Source: a virus
DNA length: 64,000 nt
IMG/VR virus record: IMGVR_UViG_3300049893_003686
Strand: one strand, 5' to 3'
Positions 41,162-47,255 of this stretch are shown one piece after another; within the stretch, counting starts at the first letter, position 1, and the number at the start of each line of letters is the position of its first letter. The position numbers and the translations under genes were made by a program. The notes beneath the pieces are model-generated. The model ran no database searches. It had not been told where the DNA came from and was given only the letters and a program-made list of their open reading frames with translations.

Positions 41162-41677
41162 GTGGCTCTAATAGGATTCAATCCACGTCATAACTATGAT
41201 GTACGACTTACTATAGAAGATGGCCCGCAACTTGGAGTTTATAAGTTACAGGATGCAATAAGAATTGCCACAGAGCGTGGATTGGATCTGGTAAATATAT
41301 CGCCGCAAGCTAAGCCGCCAGTAGCAAAGATAATGGATCATGGTCGGTTCAAGTATCGCCAAAAGCAGGCTGCTAAAGAGGCTAAGAAGAAGCAGCATGT
41401 GGTTGTGCTCAAAGAAATCAAATTAGGCGTAAACATAGAGAGGCACGATCTTGATGTTAAGCTATCTAAGATTAAAGAATGTATTGTTGATGGATGCAAG
41501 GTAAAGATTGTCATTCGATTCTATGGTAGAGAAAACGCTCATAAGGAACTCGGTTCTACATTGATGGATGCAATTCTTACGGAAATCAAAGATTTTGTCA
41601 TAATAGAAACCCCACCTACCTCAGAACGCAGGGAGATTTTCGCTATAGTGAGACCTAAAAATGATAAAAAAGCTTAA
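41162..41677 (+). CDS. infC: Translation initiation factor IF-3 (InfC).
   Basis: Collinear with bacterial IF3: GLDLVNISPQAKPPVAKIMDHGRFKYRQKQ, KKKQHVVVLKEIKL, VKIVIRFYGRENAHKELG, REIFAIVRPK. GTG start. Confidence 0.85.
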   Translation: MALIGFNPRHNYDVRLTIEDGPQLGVYKLQDAIRIATERGLDLVNISPQAKPPVAKIMDHGRFKYRQKQAAKEAKKKQHVVVLKEIKLGVNIERHDLDVKLSKIKECIVDGCKVKIVIRFYGRENAHKELGSTLMDAILTEIKDFVIIETPPTSERREIFAIVRPKNDKKA

Positions 41678-41802
41678 AACAATAGCATATACTCTTGCTG
41701 GAACTACAGTTACGCTAGCATCACTAATTTATATTGAGAGGGCGCTCAGCAATATTATTTTAAAGCATGCAAGTAAGCATGCTCGTAAGATTAATAGTGT
41801 AG

Positions 41803-42201
41803 ATGAGAAAAATGACAGATAATATACTATATGTTGATTTTAAGAATAAAAAACGAATAGAACACTCCATTGCAGAGGCCCCATCTGCAGTGCCTACATT
41901 GTTTAATGAAAAAAGGCGGAGATTCCTAGAGCTACTAGAACTTGGCATTGTCCGGACGGTATCTTCTGGTAATGATCCAAATCTATTGCTTCCACAGCAC
42001 ATATACGCTCAAGAAGTTCATTTAAATTGGAGCTCTAAATTTCTGATATCAGATTTAGTGATCAATGATAATGGTATAAGTGGAACATTATCATTTAATC
42101 AAACGCCATCGCATGTTACGGTACCGTGGAGTTCTATTATTTCCATGTGGAGCCTCAGTCATCCAAAAGATTATAGATTCGACTGGGATATAAATGAGTG
42201 A
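41803..42201 (+). CDS. Hypothetical protein.
   Basis: 132-aa ORF. Confidence 0.45.
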   Translation: MRKMTDNILYVDFKNKKRIEHSIAEAPSAVPTLFNEKRRRFLELLELGIVRTVSSGNDPNLLLPQHIYAQEVHLNWSSKFLISDLVINDNGISGTLSFNQTPSHVTVPWSSIISMWSLSHPKDYRFDWDINE

Positions 42202-42248
42202 AAATAAATTAATTAACGCCATCTTCTGTCAGTAGCATAATTAGGTGC

Positions 42249-42332
42249 GGGCCAGTAGACGCGCTCCGCTCATAACGGAGTAAGGGTAATTTGGTTCTGA
42301 AAATGTGGGTTCAAGTCCCACCTGGCCCACCA
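42249..42332 (+). tRNA. Aberrant tRNA-like gene, copy 2 (identical to 25709-25792).
   Basis: 84-nt exact duplicate. The flanking sequence differs immediately outside the element. Confidence 0.45.
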
Positions 42333-42346
42333 TTTTAACATCTTAG

Positions 42347-42616
42347 ATGAAATCTATACTAAATACTATAATGTTAAATAATGATAAATCATTTTTAACT
42401 AAAGCAATAATTGCTATTAAAGCAGCTCACTTGGGACCATTTATTTCGAGTGATGATATGAGTATGCTTCATGCTTATTATGCATCGGCAGAGCAAGAGT
42501 TGTATGCGCATTTTTGTGCGCAAGTAAACATACTCTATAAAACCAATGAAGTTAATAAACAAGATATTAATGTCTCTAATAGAGAAAGAGCCGTCTTTAG
42601 AAAAGATCATTCATGA
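42347..42616 (+). CDS. Hypothetical protein.
   Basis: 89-aa ORF. Overlaps the next ORF by about 70 nt, so one of the two starts is probably later. Confidence 0.35.
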   Translation: MKSILNTIMLNNDKSFLTKAIIAIKAAHLGPFISSDDMSMLHAYYASAEQELYAHFCAQVNILYKTNEVNKQDINVSNRERAVFRKDHS

Positions 42617-43085
42617 ATTGGAACTATCATTAATTGATGATCCGCTCTTTGCATGTGCAGCAATATCAATTAAGGATGGTAATGTTGTACTTACCATTAA
42701 TCAAAGAAAATTCGATCTTTTAACTCAAGATGAGATGGTCGCTGTTATGGCCCATGAGATAGGACATCTTATATTAGGTCACCTATCTCATCGTACAATT
42801 CATGCTAATGATAGATTTATCATTAGCTTAGCTCAAGATTTGGCATTAAATTCTGGACTCGAACAATCATATACGCTGCCAAAGTGGTTTGTCACAGCAG
42901 AAAAGCTAAAGTTACCGCCTATGCTATCTACAGAGCAATACATAGAGCTACTTAGCCTTGATAATCAGTATGAGCTTAAAAAAATAGTTAAGATACCAGA
43001 TATTATAATGAATAGTGATCACGTCTCTAATAAAAAAATACTGAAGTCATTGATAGATAAAGTGCCCATGTCAATTATATTATAA
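42546..43085 (+). CDS. Putative Zn-metalloprotease (HEIGH motif; ImmA/IrrE- or M48-like).
   Basis: VAVMAHEIGHLILGHLSH contains HExxH followed by a His-rich segment. The true start may be M at 42570. Confidence 0.45.
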   Translation: MKLINKILMSLIEKEPSLEKIIHELELSLIDDPLFACAAISIKDGNVVLTINQRKFDLLTQDEMVAVMAHEIGHLILGHLSHRTIHANDRFIISLAQDLALNSGLEQSYTLPKWFVTAEKLKLPPMLSTEQYIELLSLDNQYELKKIVKIPDIIMNSDHVSNKKILKSLIDKVPMSIIL

Positions 43086-43097
43086 TAAACAACTATA

Positions 43098-43340
43098 ATG
43101 TTTATGATGACAGCAAAAATATCTCTCGATGCAGATAGCAATCTCGTCATCAGTATGGATGATTACCCAAATAGATATCTTAGCGACTCATTAATTAAAC
43201 TGTCTATAGATAATAAAACATTCTCCGCTCCATCAGGATCAAGTCCTCAGAATCCTTGGAGTTGGAGATTTGCACAACAATTCAAACCAGCTCTTCTTTC
43301 TTTGTTAGAAAAGCATAAGATTGCAATAGAATATTTGTGA
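43098..43340 (+). CDS. Hypothetical small protein.
   Basis: 80-aa ORF. TGATG overlaps the next gene. Confidence 0.4.
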   Translation: MFMMTAKISLDADSNLVISMDDYPNRYLSDSLIKLSIDNKTFSAPSGSSPQNPWSWRFAQQFKPALLSLLEKHKIAIEYL

Positions 43341-45318: not shown

Positions 45319-45359
45319 CTATATACTCCTTGTGTTAATATAGATAAATTAGTATTAGA

Positions 45360-45857
45360 ATGGAGTCAAAAATGACCGATGCTCAGTTATCAGATTCAGA
45401 TTCACGTAGAATAACAGTTATGCGTGGCGTAAAAGAAGGTGCACTTAAAAGTGTTGTTGATAAATTAGTGCATACGATGTCAGACCCAGTCTGTCAAGCA
45501 ATTATGCCAAAGTTTAAAGAAACTTTTCCTCAGGGAGGGCACATGCTTGAGCCGGCTGTTAAAGTCGCCCTAGAATTTGCTTTTATTATGGGGATCGCAG
45601 AGCTCATGCTATTCGCTGCTCCAACAGCATCTAGAATAATTCCTACAACCTCTCCAGAAGAGATGACCAAAAAGAGTCAGCTACTGGCGACATGGATGCG
45701 CAAATATGCTGGTGAGCGCGTAGGAGAGCAGCTTGTTGAAGCGGCATTGGCAGTATTTCCCATGGTAATGACTCAGTTTAGTGAAATTAGCTCTACTGAT
45801 GTGGCGGAAATTCTTGGAGAATCAACAGTTGAGCTAGCTGGCTCTGAGCGAAAATAA
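45360..45857 (+). CDS. Hypothetical protein, paralog A (family shared with 47280-47786).
   Basis: RGVKEGALKS / PAVKVALEFAFIMGIAE / YAGERVGEQLVEAALA match blocks in the paralog. Confidence 0.55.
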   Translation: MESKMTDAQLSDSDSRRITVMRGVKEGALKSVVDKLVHTMSDPVCQAIMPKFKETFPQGGHMLEPAVKVALEFAFIMGIAELMLFAAPTASRIIPTTSPEEMTKKSQLLATWMRKYAGERVGEQLVEAALAVFPMVMTQFSEISSTDVAEILGESTVELAGSERK

Positions 45858-45894
45858 GCGGATGTCTAAACGCTGTTAGCAAGTACTAGTACTG

Positions 45895-46209
45895 ATGACG
45901 CATTCGGGCGTCAAACAACATATGCATTTTGCATTCGGAGTAGTGATGAAGTCAAAGGTTAGTACTTTCGATCTCGCCGTATCTCAGGTTCGCGCGGCGA
46001 TTCGCCGTCGACTGCGGCGTGAGCGCACAATTAGTGCGCTAAATATAGCGAACGTAGCGCTCTCAGTCAAGGGCGCCCGGCGCGGTGCTGTCGTACGTAC
46101 AGCATTTCGCCAACTTGAATCAGAGGGGGTGATTGAACCGACTGCCGAACAGGCATATAATGAACGTAATCGACATTACGTTACAGTATATAGTCGGAAA
46201 GGTCGCTAA
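45895..46209 (+). CDS. Hypothetical Arg-rich protein.
   Basis: 104-aa ORF. Locally GC-richer. Confidence 0.4.
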   Translation: MTHSGVKQHMHFAFGVVMKSKVSTFDLAVSQVRAAIRRRLRRERTISALNIANVALSVKGARRGAVVRTAFRQLESEGVIEPTAEQAYNERNRHYVTVYSRKGR

Positions 46210-46309
46210 GAATTATTCCCGCCGCAAGGCGGGAATTTCATTTGTGTTAGTATGTTGACCCGGTCTACATATGATGTAGGTCAGGTCACCAGATAGGTGA
46301 TGATAGTAG

Positions 46310-46690
46310 TTGGATAAGAATAACGTCAATACGACACTTACAAAAGGTACGGAAATGCAAAAGTTAAGCCTACATACCAAACTTCGTTCATTGTTAGAAT
46401 TAGGGAGCCTGCATCTTAGGCAAGACCCTGATTTGGGGCATGTGCTCACCGGCGAAGGCAGTTACTATATGGGCGACGATAAGGTGGAGATTTTAGCAAA
46501 TTTTCACGGCACATTGCCAGGTGATGCTGACATTACATTTTCTGCTCCAAGCGATGTAGCGTGGATTCCAAGGACAGGAGTTATTGTAGCATTCGCATTG
46601 GCAGAAGACGAGCCATTTGAGATCATGCCTGCACCTCTACGAGATGTGGTCTCTAAGTTTAAACAGAAGCAAAGTTCATCACTTAACTGA
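46310..46690 (+). CDS. Hypothetical protein.
   Basis: 126-aa ORF. Confidence 0.45.
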   Translation: MDKNNVNTTLTKGTEMQKLSLHTKLRSLLELGSLHLRQDPDLGHVLTGEGSYYMGDDKVEILANFHGTLPGDADITFSAPSDVAWIPRTGVIVAFALAEDEPFEIMPAPLRDVVSKFKQKQSSSLN

Positions 46691-46702
46691 AAGGGTATAT
46701 TT

Positions 46703-47038
46703 ATGAATTCAACACAAGATTCACAAGTCAAGAAATTCTTAAAGCAAGTTGGAAATATCGTTGCCGTACAGGCCGTTGCAGGAGCAGTTACAGAGTTAGG
46801 CAAAAAGGTTTGGCCGAAGGCAAAGGAAAAGCTTAATTTTGTACTAGACAAGGCTGAGGAATTACAGAAGGCCAAAGAGATGCGTCAAGGTTTAAATGAT
46901 CTTGTTAAGGATACAACATCGCATTATAAGCGAGTGCGTAAAGTTAGTAAAGAGGACCTTGCTGCACAATTAGATGCTCAGCTATCAGAAGATCCGCCAG
47001 TAGATGCAACTTTTGCAGAGGATAGTAGCAGTGAGTAA
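46703..47038 (+). CDS. Hypothetical protein.
   Basis: 111-aa ORF. Its stop overlaps the IF1 GTG start. Confidence 0.45.
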
Positions 47039-47255
47039 AGCAGATAAGATTGAATTTGAAGGCGTTGTAATAGACGTTTGTAAGGATAAATTCAGAGTTG
47101 AGGTTGCTCAGCAAAGCGGCACCCTTATTGTGATATGTACACCATCAGGCAAGATGCGTCAAAATTCAATTAAAATTGTGCCAGGAGATATGGTAGATGT
47201 AGAAGTATCTCCATATGATTTAAGTCGCGGTAGAATCATCTATAGGGCTAAGTGA
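47031..47255 (+). CDS. infA: Translation initiation factor IF-1 (InfA; S1-like OB fold).
   Basis: [36 protein letters not shown] parallels E. coli IF1 [35 protein letters not shown]. A GTG start at 47031 gives [11 protein letters not shown], like MAKEDNIEMQG. Confidence 0.85.

What the first reader, a model, noticed from the sequence alone, without database searches (positions are those of the whole stretch)
41162..47255. Phage-encoded translation initiation factors IF3 and IF1, both with GTG starts
IF3 (41162-41677) and IF1 (47031-47255) are full-length and highly similar to bacterial factors. Combined with tRNAs, the TilS-like gene and a CDA deaminase, this indicates investment in taking over translation initiation. 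This is a hallmark reported for huge phages. The IF1 GTG start overlaps the upstream stop (GTGAGTAA).
Basis: partly seen in the sequence, partly recalled or inferred. Interest (0 to 1): 0.55.

Follow-up and report, generated by a model that had tools for sequence, protein, structure and literature searches.

The report
Phage-borne IF3 and IF1 genes
A large, phage-like genome fragment carries its own intact copies of the bacterial translation start factors IF3 and IF1, a feature already reported for huge phages, but this IF3 lacks the cell's self-limiting start codon and has changed a residue that normally enforces accurate start-site choice.

Summary
Both genes are real and sit at the stated coordinates. 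IF3 (41162-41677) and IF1 (47031-47255) pass NCBI's curated equivalog cut-offs for infC and infA. They align end to end with solved bacterial factors and have Shine-Dalgarno sites before GTG starts. They belong to a distinct, purifying-selected clade found on metagenomic contigs of up to 368 kb. Two syntenic contigs are listed in IMG/VR. No genome among 185,579 species representatives has an IF3 more than 48% identical.

The setting is non-cellular. There is no rpmI-rplT after infC and no rRNA, nearly all genes are on one strand, and there are many orphan genes plus phage-typical genes. No capsid or terminase gene was found, so the phage assignment is strong but indirect.

Three details are new:
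- The GTG start of IF3 directly follows the TAA stop of a conserved upstream ORF in five of five lineages, although GTG starts are rare in this genome. Cellular infC uses AUU/AUC for self-repression.
- The conserved RFRGR motif reads RFYGR (RFHGR in most relatives). Changes at this position relax initiation fidelity in E. coli and mycoplasmas.
- IF1 has lost the near-invariant LPN loop.

Phage-encoded IF1 and IF3 are already published. This is a new member with interesting variant features.

The parts
40865..41161 (+). Conserved upstream ORF (98 aa, no known family). Its TAA stop is immediately followed by the GTG of IF3.
   Evidence: Homologues (35-50% identity) hold the same position in L002, L005 and L090. 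An unrelated 100-aa ORF holds it in L089. There is no Pfam hit on record for the called gene and no NCBIfam hit.
41148..41153 (+). Shine-Dalgarno-like GAGGAG, 8 nt before the IF3 start.
   Evidence: Equivalent GGAG/GAGG sites occur in all relatives.
41162..41677 (+). infC-like gene for IF3: 171 aa, GTG start, stop at 41675-41677. The RFRGR motif reads RFYGR (residues 119-123).
41803..42201 (+). Weak SspB-like ORF, conserved directly after IF3 in relatives.
   Evidence: Pfam SspB 4.3e-5, below the cut-off. Same position in L002, L003 and L005.
42249..42332 (+). Copy 2 of a non-canonical tRNA-like element: anticodon loop CUCAUAA, almost no D arm, a 21-nt insert at the variable region in the Rfam alignment (about 24 nt between anticodon stem and T stem), encoded CCA.
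   Evidence: Rfam tRNA 42.1 bits against a gathering score of 29. Missed by ARAGORN. Identical to the copy at 25709-25789.
43337..43825 (+). ComEB-like dCMP deaminase. It is part of the syntenic block but belongs to nucleotide metabolism.
   Evidence: Pfam dCMP_cyt_deam_1 4.9e-25. Best NCBIfam match is ComEB.
43837..44925 (+). FtsK/SpoIIIE-family ATPase, part of the syntenic block.
   Evidence: Pfam FtsK_SpoIIIE 3e-39. Conserved in L002, L005 and L090.
45360..45857 (+). Orphan ORF, paralogue of 47280-47786. The pair flanks the IF1 unit.
   Evidence: 38% identity, E 5e-30. No Pfam hit.
46703..47038 (+). Conserved upstream ORF (111 aa, no known family). Its stop overlaps the IF1 start.
   Evidence: It is 54-68% identical in L002, L005 and L090.
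47018..47022 (+). Shine-Dalgarno-like GAGGA, 8 nt before the IF1 start.
47031..47255 (+). infA-like gene for IF1: 74 aa, GTG start, stop TGA at 47253-47255.
47280..47786 (+). Orphan ORF, paralogue of 45360-45857.
25568..25643 (+). tRNA-Arg(UCU), the only canonical tRNA in the window.
   Evidence: AGA makes up 36% of Arg codons in 17 long window genes.
25709..25792 (+). Copy 1 of the non-canonical CAU tRNA-like element.
25937..26560 (+). TilS-like gene consisting of the lysidine synthetase N-terminal catalytic domain only (207 aa).
   Evidence: Pfam ATP_bind_3 1.8e-32. TIGR02432 123.4 bits against a cut-off of 93.6.

Best explanation
The window comes from a very large tailed-phage-like genome that carries its own working copies of bacterial IF3 and IF1. 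Relatives reach at least 368 kb.

Each factor gene is the second cistron of a conserved two-gene unit. A roughly 100-aa orphan ORF ends in a stop codon that abuts or overlaps a GTG start, which is preceded by a Shine-Dalgarno site. The factors are therefore probably made by translational coupling to the upstream ORF.

The start is a canonical GUG, not the AUU/AUC that lets cellular IF3 repress its own synthesis. The phage copy should therefore escape that feedback and raise the IF3 pool during infection, together with IF1.

The proteins should bind the normal sites on the host 30S subunit: IF3 on the platform and P site, IF1 in the A site. IF3 keeps the N-domain residues that touch the initiator-tRNA elbow. 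It has lost the basic residue R131 of the RFRGR motif (Y here, H in most relatives) and four other C-domain arginines. IF1 has replaced the near-invariant LPN loop.

The most likely outcome is sustained initiation with loosened proofreading on host ribosomes, in favour of phage messages. This would act alongside the element's tRNA supply and repair genes.

Shown: gene identity, gene integrity, purifying selection, conserved gene order, the start-codon pattern, the substitutions. Inferred: phage identity (no virion gene was seen), translational coupling, escape from autoregulation, altered fidelity, benefit to the phage.
For: Gene identity: Pfam, NCBIfam equivalog and PDB alignments.

Selection: within the clade, pN is 0.12-0.38 against saturated pS of 0.71-0.94 for both genes.

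Conserved gene order: the block IF3, SspB-like, deaminase, FtsK, ORF, IF1, S8 protease is kept in L002, L005 and L090.

Distinct clade:
- IF3 relatives are 54-99% identical. The next best match in 185,579 species genomes is at most 48%, from many phyla.
- The core clade has 200/200 NJ bootstrap support. It groups with other huge-phage IF3 in only 3/200 replicates.

Non-cellular context:
- rplT lies a median 283 nt after infC in 72/80 bacterial loci. It is absent from the window and 13 related loci.
- No rRNA. No megablast match to phages or plasmids, and plasmid IF3 matches are at most 43% identical.

Phage-typical content:
- DenV-like glycosylase and an RIIA-like ATPase that hits 110 phage records.
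- NadV/NMNAT, Dam, dUTPase.
- Relatives are IMG/VR UViGs. They carry an S21-like gene with an N-terminal extension, peptide deformylase and gp46/47-like SbcCD.

Start codons:
- IF3 is TAA-GTG with a Shine-Dalgarno site in 5/5 lineages. IF1 is GTG in 3/4.
- Called genes of the same element are 38 ATG, 2 TTG and 1 GTG, and that one GTG is IF3.
- 16/80 bacterial infC have no canonical start at all, and most have ATT/ATC at -13.
- The AUU start gives IF3 autoregulation (PMC5472188).

Residues:
- R25, Q33 and K66 are kept (their role is described in PMC9723500).
- Position 131 is R/K in 80/80 bacterial and 4/4 other phage IF3, but non-basic in 12/13 clade members.
- R131 contacts the start codon. 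R131P, or natural P/F/Y in mycoplasmas, relaxes discrimination (PMC11775629).

Precedent: IF1 and IF3 in huge phages (PMC7162821). Annotated IF3 in the cultured phages Atu_ph07 and Phosso.
Against: - No capsid, portal, terminase or tail gene was found in the 64 kb window or in about 70 kb more of the IMG/VR relative. The terminase PHROG hits on one 645-aa protein overlap hits to primase and helicase-loader families, so they look like a shared inserted element rather than a terminase.
- Much of the gene content also occurs in cells and plasmids: ClpB, PyrD, glycosyltransferases, a PRTRC-like E1/E2/JAB set.
- No experiment shows that either protein binds 30S.
- His at position 131 may be partly protonated, so it may retain some of the function of Arg.
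- The roles I assign to R99, R112, R116 and R147 rest on my recollection of mutagenesis work that I did not retrieve here.
- GUG is still a somewhat weaker start than AUG, so some IF3-dependent tuning cannot be excluded.
Confidence: 0.7

Rival explanations
1. The fragment is not viral. It belongs to another kind of giant extrachromosomal element, such as a megaplasmid or a Borg-like element, that has captured IF3 and IF1.
For: No virion or packaging gene was seen in about 135 kb examined. A PRTRC-like ThiF/E2/JAB cassette, typical of plasmids and mobile elements, lies at 55495-58239. There are FtsK-like and ParB-free partition-like genes. A large glycan-synthesis cluster occurs in the relative. 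PLSDB plasmids and chromids also carry infC.
Against: - Two syntenic relatives (one, L094, shown syntenic only in a downstream region) are filed as uncultivated viral genomes in IMG/VR.
- There is an RIIA-like ATPase shared with about 110 bona fide phage records.
- DenV, NadV/NMNAT, gp46/47-like SbcCD, an S21-like gene with an N-terminal extension and tRNA clusters match the published huge-phage repertoire (PMC7162821).
- No plasmid replication or conjugation genes were seen.
- Plasmid IF3 matches are at most 43% identical, and there is no DNA match.
Confidence: 0.1
2. The fragment comes from a reduced or unusual bacterial genome, and these are its ordinary housekeeping infC and infA genes.
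For: Both proteins pass the bacterial equivalog models. Housekeeping-type genes (ClpB, PyrD, HSP20) are nearby. A few bacterial MAG loci also lack rplT after infC (L007, L022, L040, L050).
Against: - No rpmI/rplT, rRNA or ribosomal-protein operon was found in 64 kb or in 13 related loci.
- Nearly all genes are on one strand and many are orphans.
- No GTDB species genome has an IF3 above 48% identity, although the clade recurs in many metagenomes.
- The GTG start replaces the cellular AUU/AUC.
- R131 is lost, whereas it is R/K in 80/80 bacterial relatives.
Confidence: 0.04
3. The phage proteins are antagonists rather than helpers. They would occupy the IF3 and IF1 sites on host 30S subunits but work poorly. 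This would shut down host initiation, or block a host defence that acts through initiation factors.
For: Clade-wide loss of five C-domain basic residues in IF3, including R131. Replacement of the near-invariant LPN loop, a 3-aa insertion, and H35, I36 and Y44 changes in IF1. Excess IF3 is known to inhibit some initiation events such as leaderless mRNAs (PMC11775629).
Against: - The residues needed for folding and for core contacts are retained. In IF3 these are R25, Q33, Y75, D106, K110, R129, R133, E134, H137 and R168. In IF1 they are K39, M40, R41, G50, D51, PYDL, R64, R66 and R70.
- The phage must translate its own messages on the same ribosomes.
- Natural R131Y/F/P variants in mycoplasmas are functional IF3s.
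Confidence: 0.12
4. The two genes are recently captured, functionless passengers.
For: None beyond the general observation that large phages pick up host genes.
Against: - Both genes are intact in every relative.
- Both show pN far below pS.
- Synteny, start codon and stop-start junction are conserved across lineages as far apart as 54% identity.
- No donor closer than 48% exists.
Confidence: 0.02

Closest known systems
IF1 and IF3 genes of huge phages (Al-Shayeb et al. 2020, PMC7162821; e.g. LR756511, which has both)
   Same: Bacterial-type IF3 and IF1 on very large phage-like genomes, together with tRNAs, tRNA-modification and repair genes, an S21-like gene with an N-terminal extension, and peptide deformylase. 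They also use canonical start codons: ATG in LR756511 and LR756504.
   Different: Only 35-39% (IF3) and 40-47% (IF1) identical by tblastn. They do not group with this clade in the tree (3/200 bootstraps). They keep a basic residue (K) at position 131. There is no DNA similarity.
IF3 of the cultured jumbo phages Agrobacterium phage Atu_ph07 and Sinorhizobium phage Phosso
   Same: Annotated phage IF3 with a GTG start and an AAGGAG Shine-Dalgarno site. Phosso also has IF1.
   Different: About 35% identity. Their IF3 follows a ClpX-like ATPase gene rather than a stop-start junction with a small ORF. The motif is RFKGR.
Cellular infC (E. coli / Bacillus type) in the infC-rpmI-rplT operon
   Same: Two-domain architecture, a lysine-rich linker, the N-domain tRNA-elbow residues and most C-domain core residues.
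   Different: GTG start instead of AUU/AUC. No rpmI-rplT downstream. A shorter N-terminal tail with a clade-specific GFNPRHNY motif. Substitutions R99G, R112S, R116E, R131Y and R147A.
Mycoplasma IF3 and the E. coli infC R131P fidelity mutant
   Same: Loss of Arg at position 131 of the RFRGR motif. Mycoplasmas have P, F or Y there, and the window has Y.
   Different: Most relatives of the window have H rather than Y. No functional test has been done here. Whether the host uS9 tail or initiator tRNA is also unusual is unknown.
Bacterial infA (IF1)
   Same: OB-fold length and the K39-M40-R41, G50-D51, PYDL and GRI(V/I)YR motifs.
   Different: LPN(A/T) at positions 17-20 is replaced by [C/S][K/R]D with a one-residue deletion. 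There is a 3-residue insertion after position 29. H35 becomes T/K, I36 becomes P, Y44 becomes S.

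Membership tests
IF3 (infC; NCBIfam TIGR00168, Pfam PF05198 + PF00707) | N-terminal and C-terminal IF3 domains joined by a lysine-rich linker, with a score above the curated equivalog cut-off | tested here: met
   IF3_N 1.1e-23 (residues 13-74) and IF3_C 3.9e-24 (residues 82-166). TIGR00168 176.6 bits against a cut-off of 60. Full-length alignment to 5me0_Y, 8jsg_A and 5lmn_X.
IF3 (infC) | N-domain residues that contact the initiator-tRNA elbow (E. coli R25, Q33, R66) | tested here: met
   R15, Q23 and K56 in the window. R, Q and K in 15/15 clade members. Their role is described in PMC9723500.
IF3 (infC) | Conserved 129-RFRGR-133 motif, in which R131 contacts the start codon | tested here: not met
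   The window reads RFYGR. Position 131 is H/Y/Q/S in 12/13 clade members, against R/K in 80/80 bacterial and K in 4/4 other phage IF3. The role of the motif is described in PMC11775629.
IF3 (infC) | Non-canonical AUU/AUC start codon that gives translational autorepression | tested here: not met
   GTG in the window and in 4 further lineages. Bacterial comparison. Literature.
IF3 (infC) | Operon context infC-rpmI-rplT | tested here: not met
   rplT is found after infC in 72/80 bacterial loci. None is found in the window or in 13 related loci.
IF3 (infC) | Binds the 30S platform, prevents subunit joining and proofreads the initiation complex | not testable with these tools
   Needs biochemistry or genetic complementation.
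IF1 (infA; NCBIfam TIGR00008, Pfam PF01176) | Single S1-like OB domain of about 72 aa, with a score above the curated equivalog cut-off | tested here: met
   eIF-1a 9.3e-16. TIGR00008 80.7 bits against a cut-off of 61.15. Alignment from residue 1 to 74 with 2n78_A and others.
IF1 (infA) | Conserved basic and C-terminal residues implicated in 30S binding (K39, R41, R64, R66, R70 in Met-numbered E. coli; R69 of the mature protein) | tested here: met
   All are retained in 8/8 clade members. The role of Arg69 and Arg64 is described in PMC4611024.
IF1 (infA) | Near-invariant L17-P18-N19 loop | tested here: not met
   It is replaced by C/S-K/R-D with a one-residue deletion in 8/8 clade members. In the 100 other homologues returned by the search (mostly unnamed metagenomic proteins taken as bacterial), L, P and N occur in 94, 92 and 87. 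The structural role of this loop is my recollection only.
Huge-phage translation gene set (Al-Shayeb et al. 2020) | Phage genome larger than 200 kb | tested here: inconclusive
   The window is 64 kb. Clade members sit on contigs of 229 kb and 368 kb, but completeness is unknown.
Huge-phage translation gene set (Al-Shayeb et al. 2020) | Virion and packaging hallmark genes on the same molecule | tested here: inconclusive
   None were recognised in the window or in about 70 kb more of IMGVR_UViG_3300043177_000268. Listing in IMG/VR is the only direct viral call.
Huge-phage translation gene set (Al-Shayeb et al. 2020) | Co-occurrence of IF1/IF3 with tRNAs, tRNA-modification or repair enzymes, and S21 | tested here: met
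   tRNA-Arg, the CAU element, the TilS N-domain, a nucleotidyltransferase I read as CCA-adding (PHROG label only 'nucleotidyltransferase', no NCBIfam hit), Thg1 and Ro60/Rsr in the window. Six tRNAs upstream of IF3 in L002. An S21-like gene and peptide deformylase in L093.

The most novel reading that the evidence does not exclude
This clade's IF3 is a naturally relaxed-fidelity initiation factor (RF[Y/H]GR in place of RFRGR, plus four other lost C-domain arginines). It is expressed without the cellular AUU feedback, through a conserved stop-GTG coupling. Together with an IF1 that has a remodelled LPN loop, it would reset start-site selection on host 30S subunits during infection. That would let the phage initiate on messages or with tRNAs that the host factor would reject.
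Probability: 0.22. Interest if true: 0.7.

Novelty: new member of a known kind. Interest (0 to 1): 0.42.

Why it matters
Phage-encoded initiation factors have been catalogued, but their function has not been tested.

This clade offers a concrete and cheap hypothesis. A single residue (Y121 here, E. coli R131) is known from bacterial genetics to control start-codon and initiator-tRNA proofreading, and it is systematically changed. The gene also lacks the start codon that lets cells limit IF3.

If confirmed, this would show that viruses change the rules of initiation and do not simply top up host factors.

The start-codon pattern is a simple marker for telling viral infC from cellular infC in metagenomes. 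It is canonical in every phage infC examined here, against AUU/AUC in cells.

Tried and rejected
- Megablast of 24 kb against phages and of 12 kb against plasmids gave no match.
- I walked about 70 kb along the IMG/VR relative, using 6 of the 8 viral scans (one of them found nothing), to look for capsid or terminase genes. I found Nudix, a glycan cluster, peptide deformylase, GroEL, an S21-like gene, a ClpP-like gene, primase, SbcCD-like genes and a sigma-like factor, but no hallmark gene.
- The ClpP-like 195-aa protein hits 'head maturation protease' families, but it has the size of an ordinary ClpP. I did not count it as a hallmark.
- The terminase-family hits on L102 16954-18891 overlap primase and helicase-loader family hits over the same residues. 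I put them down to a shared inserted element and rejected them as terminase evidence.
- I concatenated seven orphan proteins into one tblastn query (the submitted query was cut to the first six, 2082 aa, so the OmpA-domain protein was not searched). Only the RIIA-like ATPase hit phages.
- Many top 'phage' database hits for IF3 and ClpB are unannotated contigs named after Listeria, Enterococcus or Staphylococcus phages that look like bacterial DNA. I did not use them as evidence of phage IF3.
- Exact-protein look-ups for P0001, the Dam methylase and the E2-like protein found no record.
- A search for repeated 16-mers, intended to sample the rest of the relative contig, found none.
- I considered the CAU tRNA-like element as a phage initiator tRNA and rejected it. 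It has a G1-C72 pair, it is linked to TilS in two lineages, and AUA makes up 40% of Ile codons. These point to a tRNA-Ile2 role.
- The first bootstrap script timed out. I repeated it with a numpy NJ.
- Donor or host inference from IF3 failed. The nearest bacterial sequences are 40-48% identical and come from Bacillota, Aquificota, Gemmatimonadota, Patescibacteria and others.

Full report
**1. The observation**

IF3:
- 41162-41677 (+) encodes 171 aa with both IF3 domains: Pfam IF3_N 1.1e-23 and IF3_C 3.9e-24.
- It scores 176.6 bits against NCBI's infC equivalog model, whose cut-off is 60.
- It aligns over residues 13-170 with solved IF3 chains from three entries/species, including the 180-aa chain 8jsg_A whose printed sequence agrees with my recalled E. 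coli IF3 (E 4.5e-41 to 4e-35).

IF1:
- 47031-47255 (+) encodes 74 aa.
- It matches Pfam eIF-1a (9.3e-16) and the infA equivalog (80.7 bits, cut-off 61.15).
- It aligns from its first residue with solved IF1 proteins.

Start sites:
- Both starts are GTG and both are preceded by a Shine-Dalgarno-like site 8 nt upstream, GAGGAG for IF3 and GAGGA for IF1.
- The GTGAGTAA overlap with the stop of ORF 46703-47038 is exactly as described.
- An in-frame ATG at 47004 has no such site, and every relative starts at the GTG position.

**2. What surrounds the genes**

The window has 36-43% G+C, and almost all long ORFs are on the + strand. The recognisable genes are listed below.

| Group | Genes |
|---|---|
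| NAD and nucleotide metabolism | NadV, NMNAT, PyrD, dUTPase, dCMP deaminase |
| DNA transactions | ATP-dependent DNA ligase, helicase, Dam methylase, AEP-primase-like protein, DenV-like glycosylase, FtsK-like ATPase |
| Proteostasis | ClpB, HSP20, several proteases, S8 subtilase |
| RNA and tRNA maintenance | a nucleotidyltransferase I read as CCA-adding (PHROG label only 'nucleotidyltransferase'; no NCBIfam hit), Thg1, Ro60/Rsr |
| Cell wall | VanY |
| Conjugation-like cassette | PRTRC-like E2/JAB/ThiF set |

Many ORFs have no family at all.

- Rfam finds no rRNA.
- In 72 of 80 bacterial loci fetched for comparison, rplT lies a median 283 nt downstream of infC. Neither rplT nor rpmI is present in the window or in 13 related loci.

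**3. Relatives**

- The IF3 belongs to a set of 171-172-aa proteins that are 54-99% identical, on contigs of up to 367,953 bp.
- The IF1 belongs to a parallel set that is 66-99% identical, on the same contigs.
- Three related contigs keep the same gene order: Ro60, VanY, small ORF, IF3, SspB-like, deaminase, FtsK, small ORFs, IF1, S8 protease. They are 142 kb (IMGVR_UViG_3300043177_000268), 229 kb and 115 kb long.
- A more distant member (54% identity) sits next to NadV/NMNAT in another one-strand, orphan-rich contig.
- A scan of one genome from each of 185,579 bacterial and archaeal species found nothing above 48% identity. The best hits are scattered over many phyla. PLSDB plasmids reach 43%.
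- In a neighbour-joining tree the core clade has 200/200 bootstrap support. It does not join the IF3 of other huge phages (3/200). No donor or host can be named.
- Within the clade, non-synonymous differences are 0.12-0.38 per site, while synonymous sites are saturated at 0.71-0.94. Both genes are therefore under purifying selection.

**4. Phage or not**

Direct hallmark genes were not found. I extended the view about 70 kb beyond the window along the IMG/VR relative. That region holds:
- Nudix hydrolases and a glycosyltransferase/epimerase cluster;
- peptide deformylase and GroEL;
- an S21-like protein with an N-terminal extension;
- a ClpP-like protein;
- a primase fragment and gp46/47-like SbcCD;
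- an exonuclease with an apparent inserted element;
- a sigma-like factor.

Evidence for a phage:
- Two syntenic contigs are filed as viral genomes in IMG/VR.
- An RIIA-like ATPase is shared with about 110 phage records.
- DenV is present. tRNA clusters are present, with six tRNAs upstream of IF3 in L002.
- The overall repertoire matches the description of huge phages, which explicitly lists IF1, IF3, S21 with N-terminal extensions, peptide deformylase, tRNA repair and CCA-adding enzymes (PMC7162821).

I put the phage reading at about 0.85, another giant extrachromosomal element at about 0.1, and a cellular genome at about 0.04.

**5. Start codons**

- In five of five distinct lineages, the IF3 gene begins with GTG directly after the TAA of the preceding ORF, with a Shine-Dalgarno site 7-10 nt upstream.
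- IF1 begins with GTG in three of four lineages, again at or overlapping the upstream stop.
- The upstream ORFs are themselves conserved within the core clade: 35-50% identity before IF3 and 54-68% before IF1.
- GTG is otherwise rare. In 41 called genes on contigs identical to the window there are 38 ATG, 2 TTG and 1 GTG, and that one GTG is IF3. In L002 there are 4 GTG starts among 40 genes, and two of them are IF3 and IF1.
- By contrast, 16 of 80 bacterial infC loci have no canonical start at all before the conserved core, and most carry ATT or ATC 13 codons upstream. This fits the documented AUU/AUC start through which IF3 represses its own translation (PMC5472188).
- The other phage infC genes I examined also have canonical starts: Atu_ph07 and Phosso GTG, LR756511 and LR756504 ATG.

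My inference is that phage infC is not subject to the cellular feedback loop, and that here it is translated by coupling to the upstream cistron.

**6. Residues**

IF3, in E. coli numbering:
- It keeps R25, Q33 and K66, the residues that contact the initiator-tRNA elbow (PMC9723500).
- It also keeps Y75, the lysine-rich linker, D106, K110, R129, R133, E134, H137 and R168.
- The clade has replaced R99 (G), R112 (S/A/N), R116 (E), R131 (H or Y) and R147 (S/A).
- Position 131 is the most telling. It is R or K in 80/80 bacterial relatives and in 4/4 other phage IF3, but non-basic in 12/13 clade members. The window reads RFYGR.
- According to PMC11775629, the RFRGR motif is highly conserved in bacteria and R131 contacts the start codon.
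- The same paper reports that the R131P mutant allows initiation with 3GC-mutant initiator tRNA, non-AUG codons and leaderless mRNAs.
- It also reports that mycoplasmas, which use unconventional initiator tRNAs, naturally have P, F or Y at this position.
The N-domain determinants are retained, but the key C-domain determinant is not.
- The roles of the other four arginines in 30S binding are from my memory of mutagenesis work, which I did not retrieve.

IF1:
- It keeps K39, M40, R41, G50, D51, PYDL, R64, G65, R66 and R70. The importance of the C-terminal arginines is described in PMC4611024.
- The L17-P18-N19 loop is present in 94, 92 and 87 of the 100 other homologues returned by the search (mostly unnamed metagenomic proteins, taken as bacterial). 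In the clade it is replaced by [C/S][K/R]D with a one-residue deletion.
- There is also a three-residue insertion after position 29, and H35, I36 and Y44 are changed.

**7. Mechanism proposed**

The element makes its own IF3 and IF1 from coupled, GUG-initiated cistrons that escape host-style autorepression. The proteins occupy the usual 30S sites. Because R131 and the neighbouring basic surface are altered, IF3 probably proofreads less stringently. The net effect would be to keep initiation going, and to shift it, in favour of phage messages.

Only the sequence-level statements are shown. Binding, coupling, fidelity and benefit to the phage are inferred.

The rival readings are an antagonist role, a non-viral element, a cellular fragment, and passenger genes. 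Each is given in the rival section with its evidence.

**8. Comparison and novelty**

Phage-encoded IF1 and IF3 are published for huge phages, and IF3 is annotated in cultured jumbo phages. The finding as stated is therefore a new member of a known kind, from an uncharacterised lineage with no DNA match in the phage collection.

The features that go beyond the literature I could read are:
- the conserved stop-GTG junctions;
- the general absence of the autoregulatory start codon in phage infC;
- the clade-wide R131H/Y change;
- the remodelled IF1 loop.

**9. Side finding**

Two identical 81-nt elements (84 nt with the encoded CCA), at 25709-25792 and 42249-42332, match the Rfam tRNA model (42.1 bits, gathering score 29) but are missed by ARAGORN.
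- They have a normal acceptor stem, T arm and CUCAUAA anticodon loop.
- They have 5 nt in place of the D arm and a 21-nt insert in the variable region.
- The first copy is followed by a 207-aa protein consisting only of the TilS catalytic domain.
- The same RNA recurs in another metagenome contig, again followed by a TilS-N gene. It has three differences, one of them a compensatory U-A to C-G change in the anticodon stem.
- The two TilS-N proteins are only 54% identical, while the RNA is about 96% identical.
- AUA makes up 40% of Ile codons and AGA 36% of Arg codons in long window genes.

The element is therefore most likely an unusual tRNA-Ile2 that is read after lysidine formation. It would complement the neighbouring tRNA-Arg(UCU).

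Noticed in passing
window 25709-25792 and 42249-42332 (+); L099 943-1011 (-); L100 920-988 (-): Two identical copies of a non-canonical tRNA-like RNA. It has a CAU anticodon, almost no D arm, a 21-nt insert at the variable region in the Rfam alignment (about 24 nt between anticodon stem and T stem), and an encoded CCA. Rfam finds it and ARAGORN misses it. It is conserved (about 96%) in another metagenome lineage, with one compensatory change in the anticodon stem. In both lineages it lies directly upstream of a TilS gene that has only the N-terminal domain; the two TilS proteins are 54% identical. It is probably an unusual tRNA-Ile2 with its own minimal lysidine synthetase. This may be more novel than the main finding.
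   Followed up: partly
window 1-3470: Several blocks of a 9-bp tandem repeat (consensus GGGCTTCTR; up to 84 copies at 190-950), separated by roughly 100-nt spacers. No long ORF runs through them. The base skew is strong (GC skew +0.2, AT skew -0.28). Assemblies of the same sample break at this point.
   Followed up: partly
window 55495-58239 (+): A three-gene cassette of a prokaryotic E2 (Prok-E2_D), a JAB deubiquitinase-like protein and a ThiF/E1-like protein. Its best NCBIfam matches are the PRTRC system, a ubiquitin-like conjugation set usually seen on plasmids and mobile elements.
   Followed up: partly
window 45360-45857 and 47280-47786 (+); possibly also 54630-55493: Paralogous orphan proteins (38% identity, E 5e-30) flank the IF1 two-gene unit. 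The same arrangement occurs in L002, L005 and L090. Function is unknown.
   Followed up: partly
window 14628-18409, 30858-31628, 35944-39460: A cluster of RNA and protein maintenance genes: ClpB (TIGR03346, 1082 bits), a nucleotidyltransferase I read as CCA-adding (PHROG label only 'nucleotidyltransferase', no NCBIfam hit), Thg1, HSP20, a DHHA1 phosphoesterase and a Ro60/Rsr RNA-binding protein. This suggests tRNA/RNA repair and proteostasis functions alongside the initiation factors.
   Followed up: partly
window 26573-27049 (+): A second, weak cytidine/dCMP-deaminase-fold ORF (Pfam 1.1e-6, no NCBIfam hit) lies immediately after the TilS-like gene. Whether it acts on tRNA is unknown.
   Followed up: no
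window 28478-30802 (+): A 774-aa protein with cysteine-rich repeats, a long (GE)n run and a C-terminal OmpA-like domain. A similar OmpA-domain protein is in L005. It hints at a Gram-negative host envelope.
   Followed up: no
L093 11945-19371 (IMGVR_UViG_3300043177_000268): The relative carries peptide deformylase, GroEL, an S21-like protein with a roughly 50-aa N-terminal extension (L093 18294-18698) and a ClpP-like protein. These lie about 40 kb downstream of the IF1 block, on sequence beyond the window's right end.
   Followed up: partly
L102 16954-18891: A 645-aa exonuclease-like protein whose middle part hits terminase, primase and helicase-loader PHROGs over the same residues. It is probably an intein or homing-endonuclease insertion and should not be read as a terminase.
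   Followed up: no
phage collection hits H1-H11, H61-H75: Many of the best 'phage' matches for IF3 and ClpB are unannotated contigs named after Listeria, Enterococcus, Staphylococcus or Acinetobacter phages. They look like bacterial DNA, so tblastn counts of 'phages with IF3' from this collection are inflated.
   Followed up: no
L007, L022, L040, L050: Four bacterial MAG loci (Hydrogenothermaceae, Gastranaerophilales and one unnamed) have infC without rplT within 10 kb downstream. They are the nearest neighbours of the clade in the NJ tree. L022 (the only one whose ORF layout I listed) has mixed gene strands, and none shows a tRNA cluster; they look cellular.
   Followed up: partly
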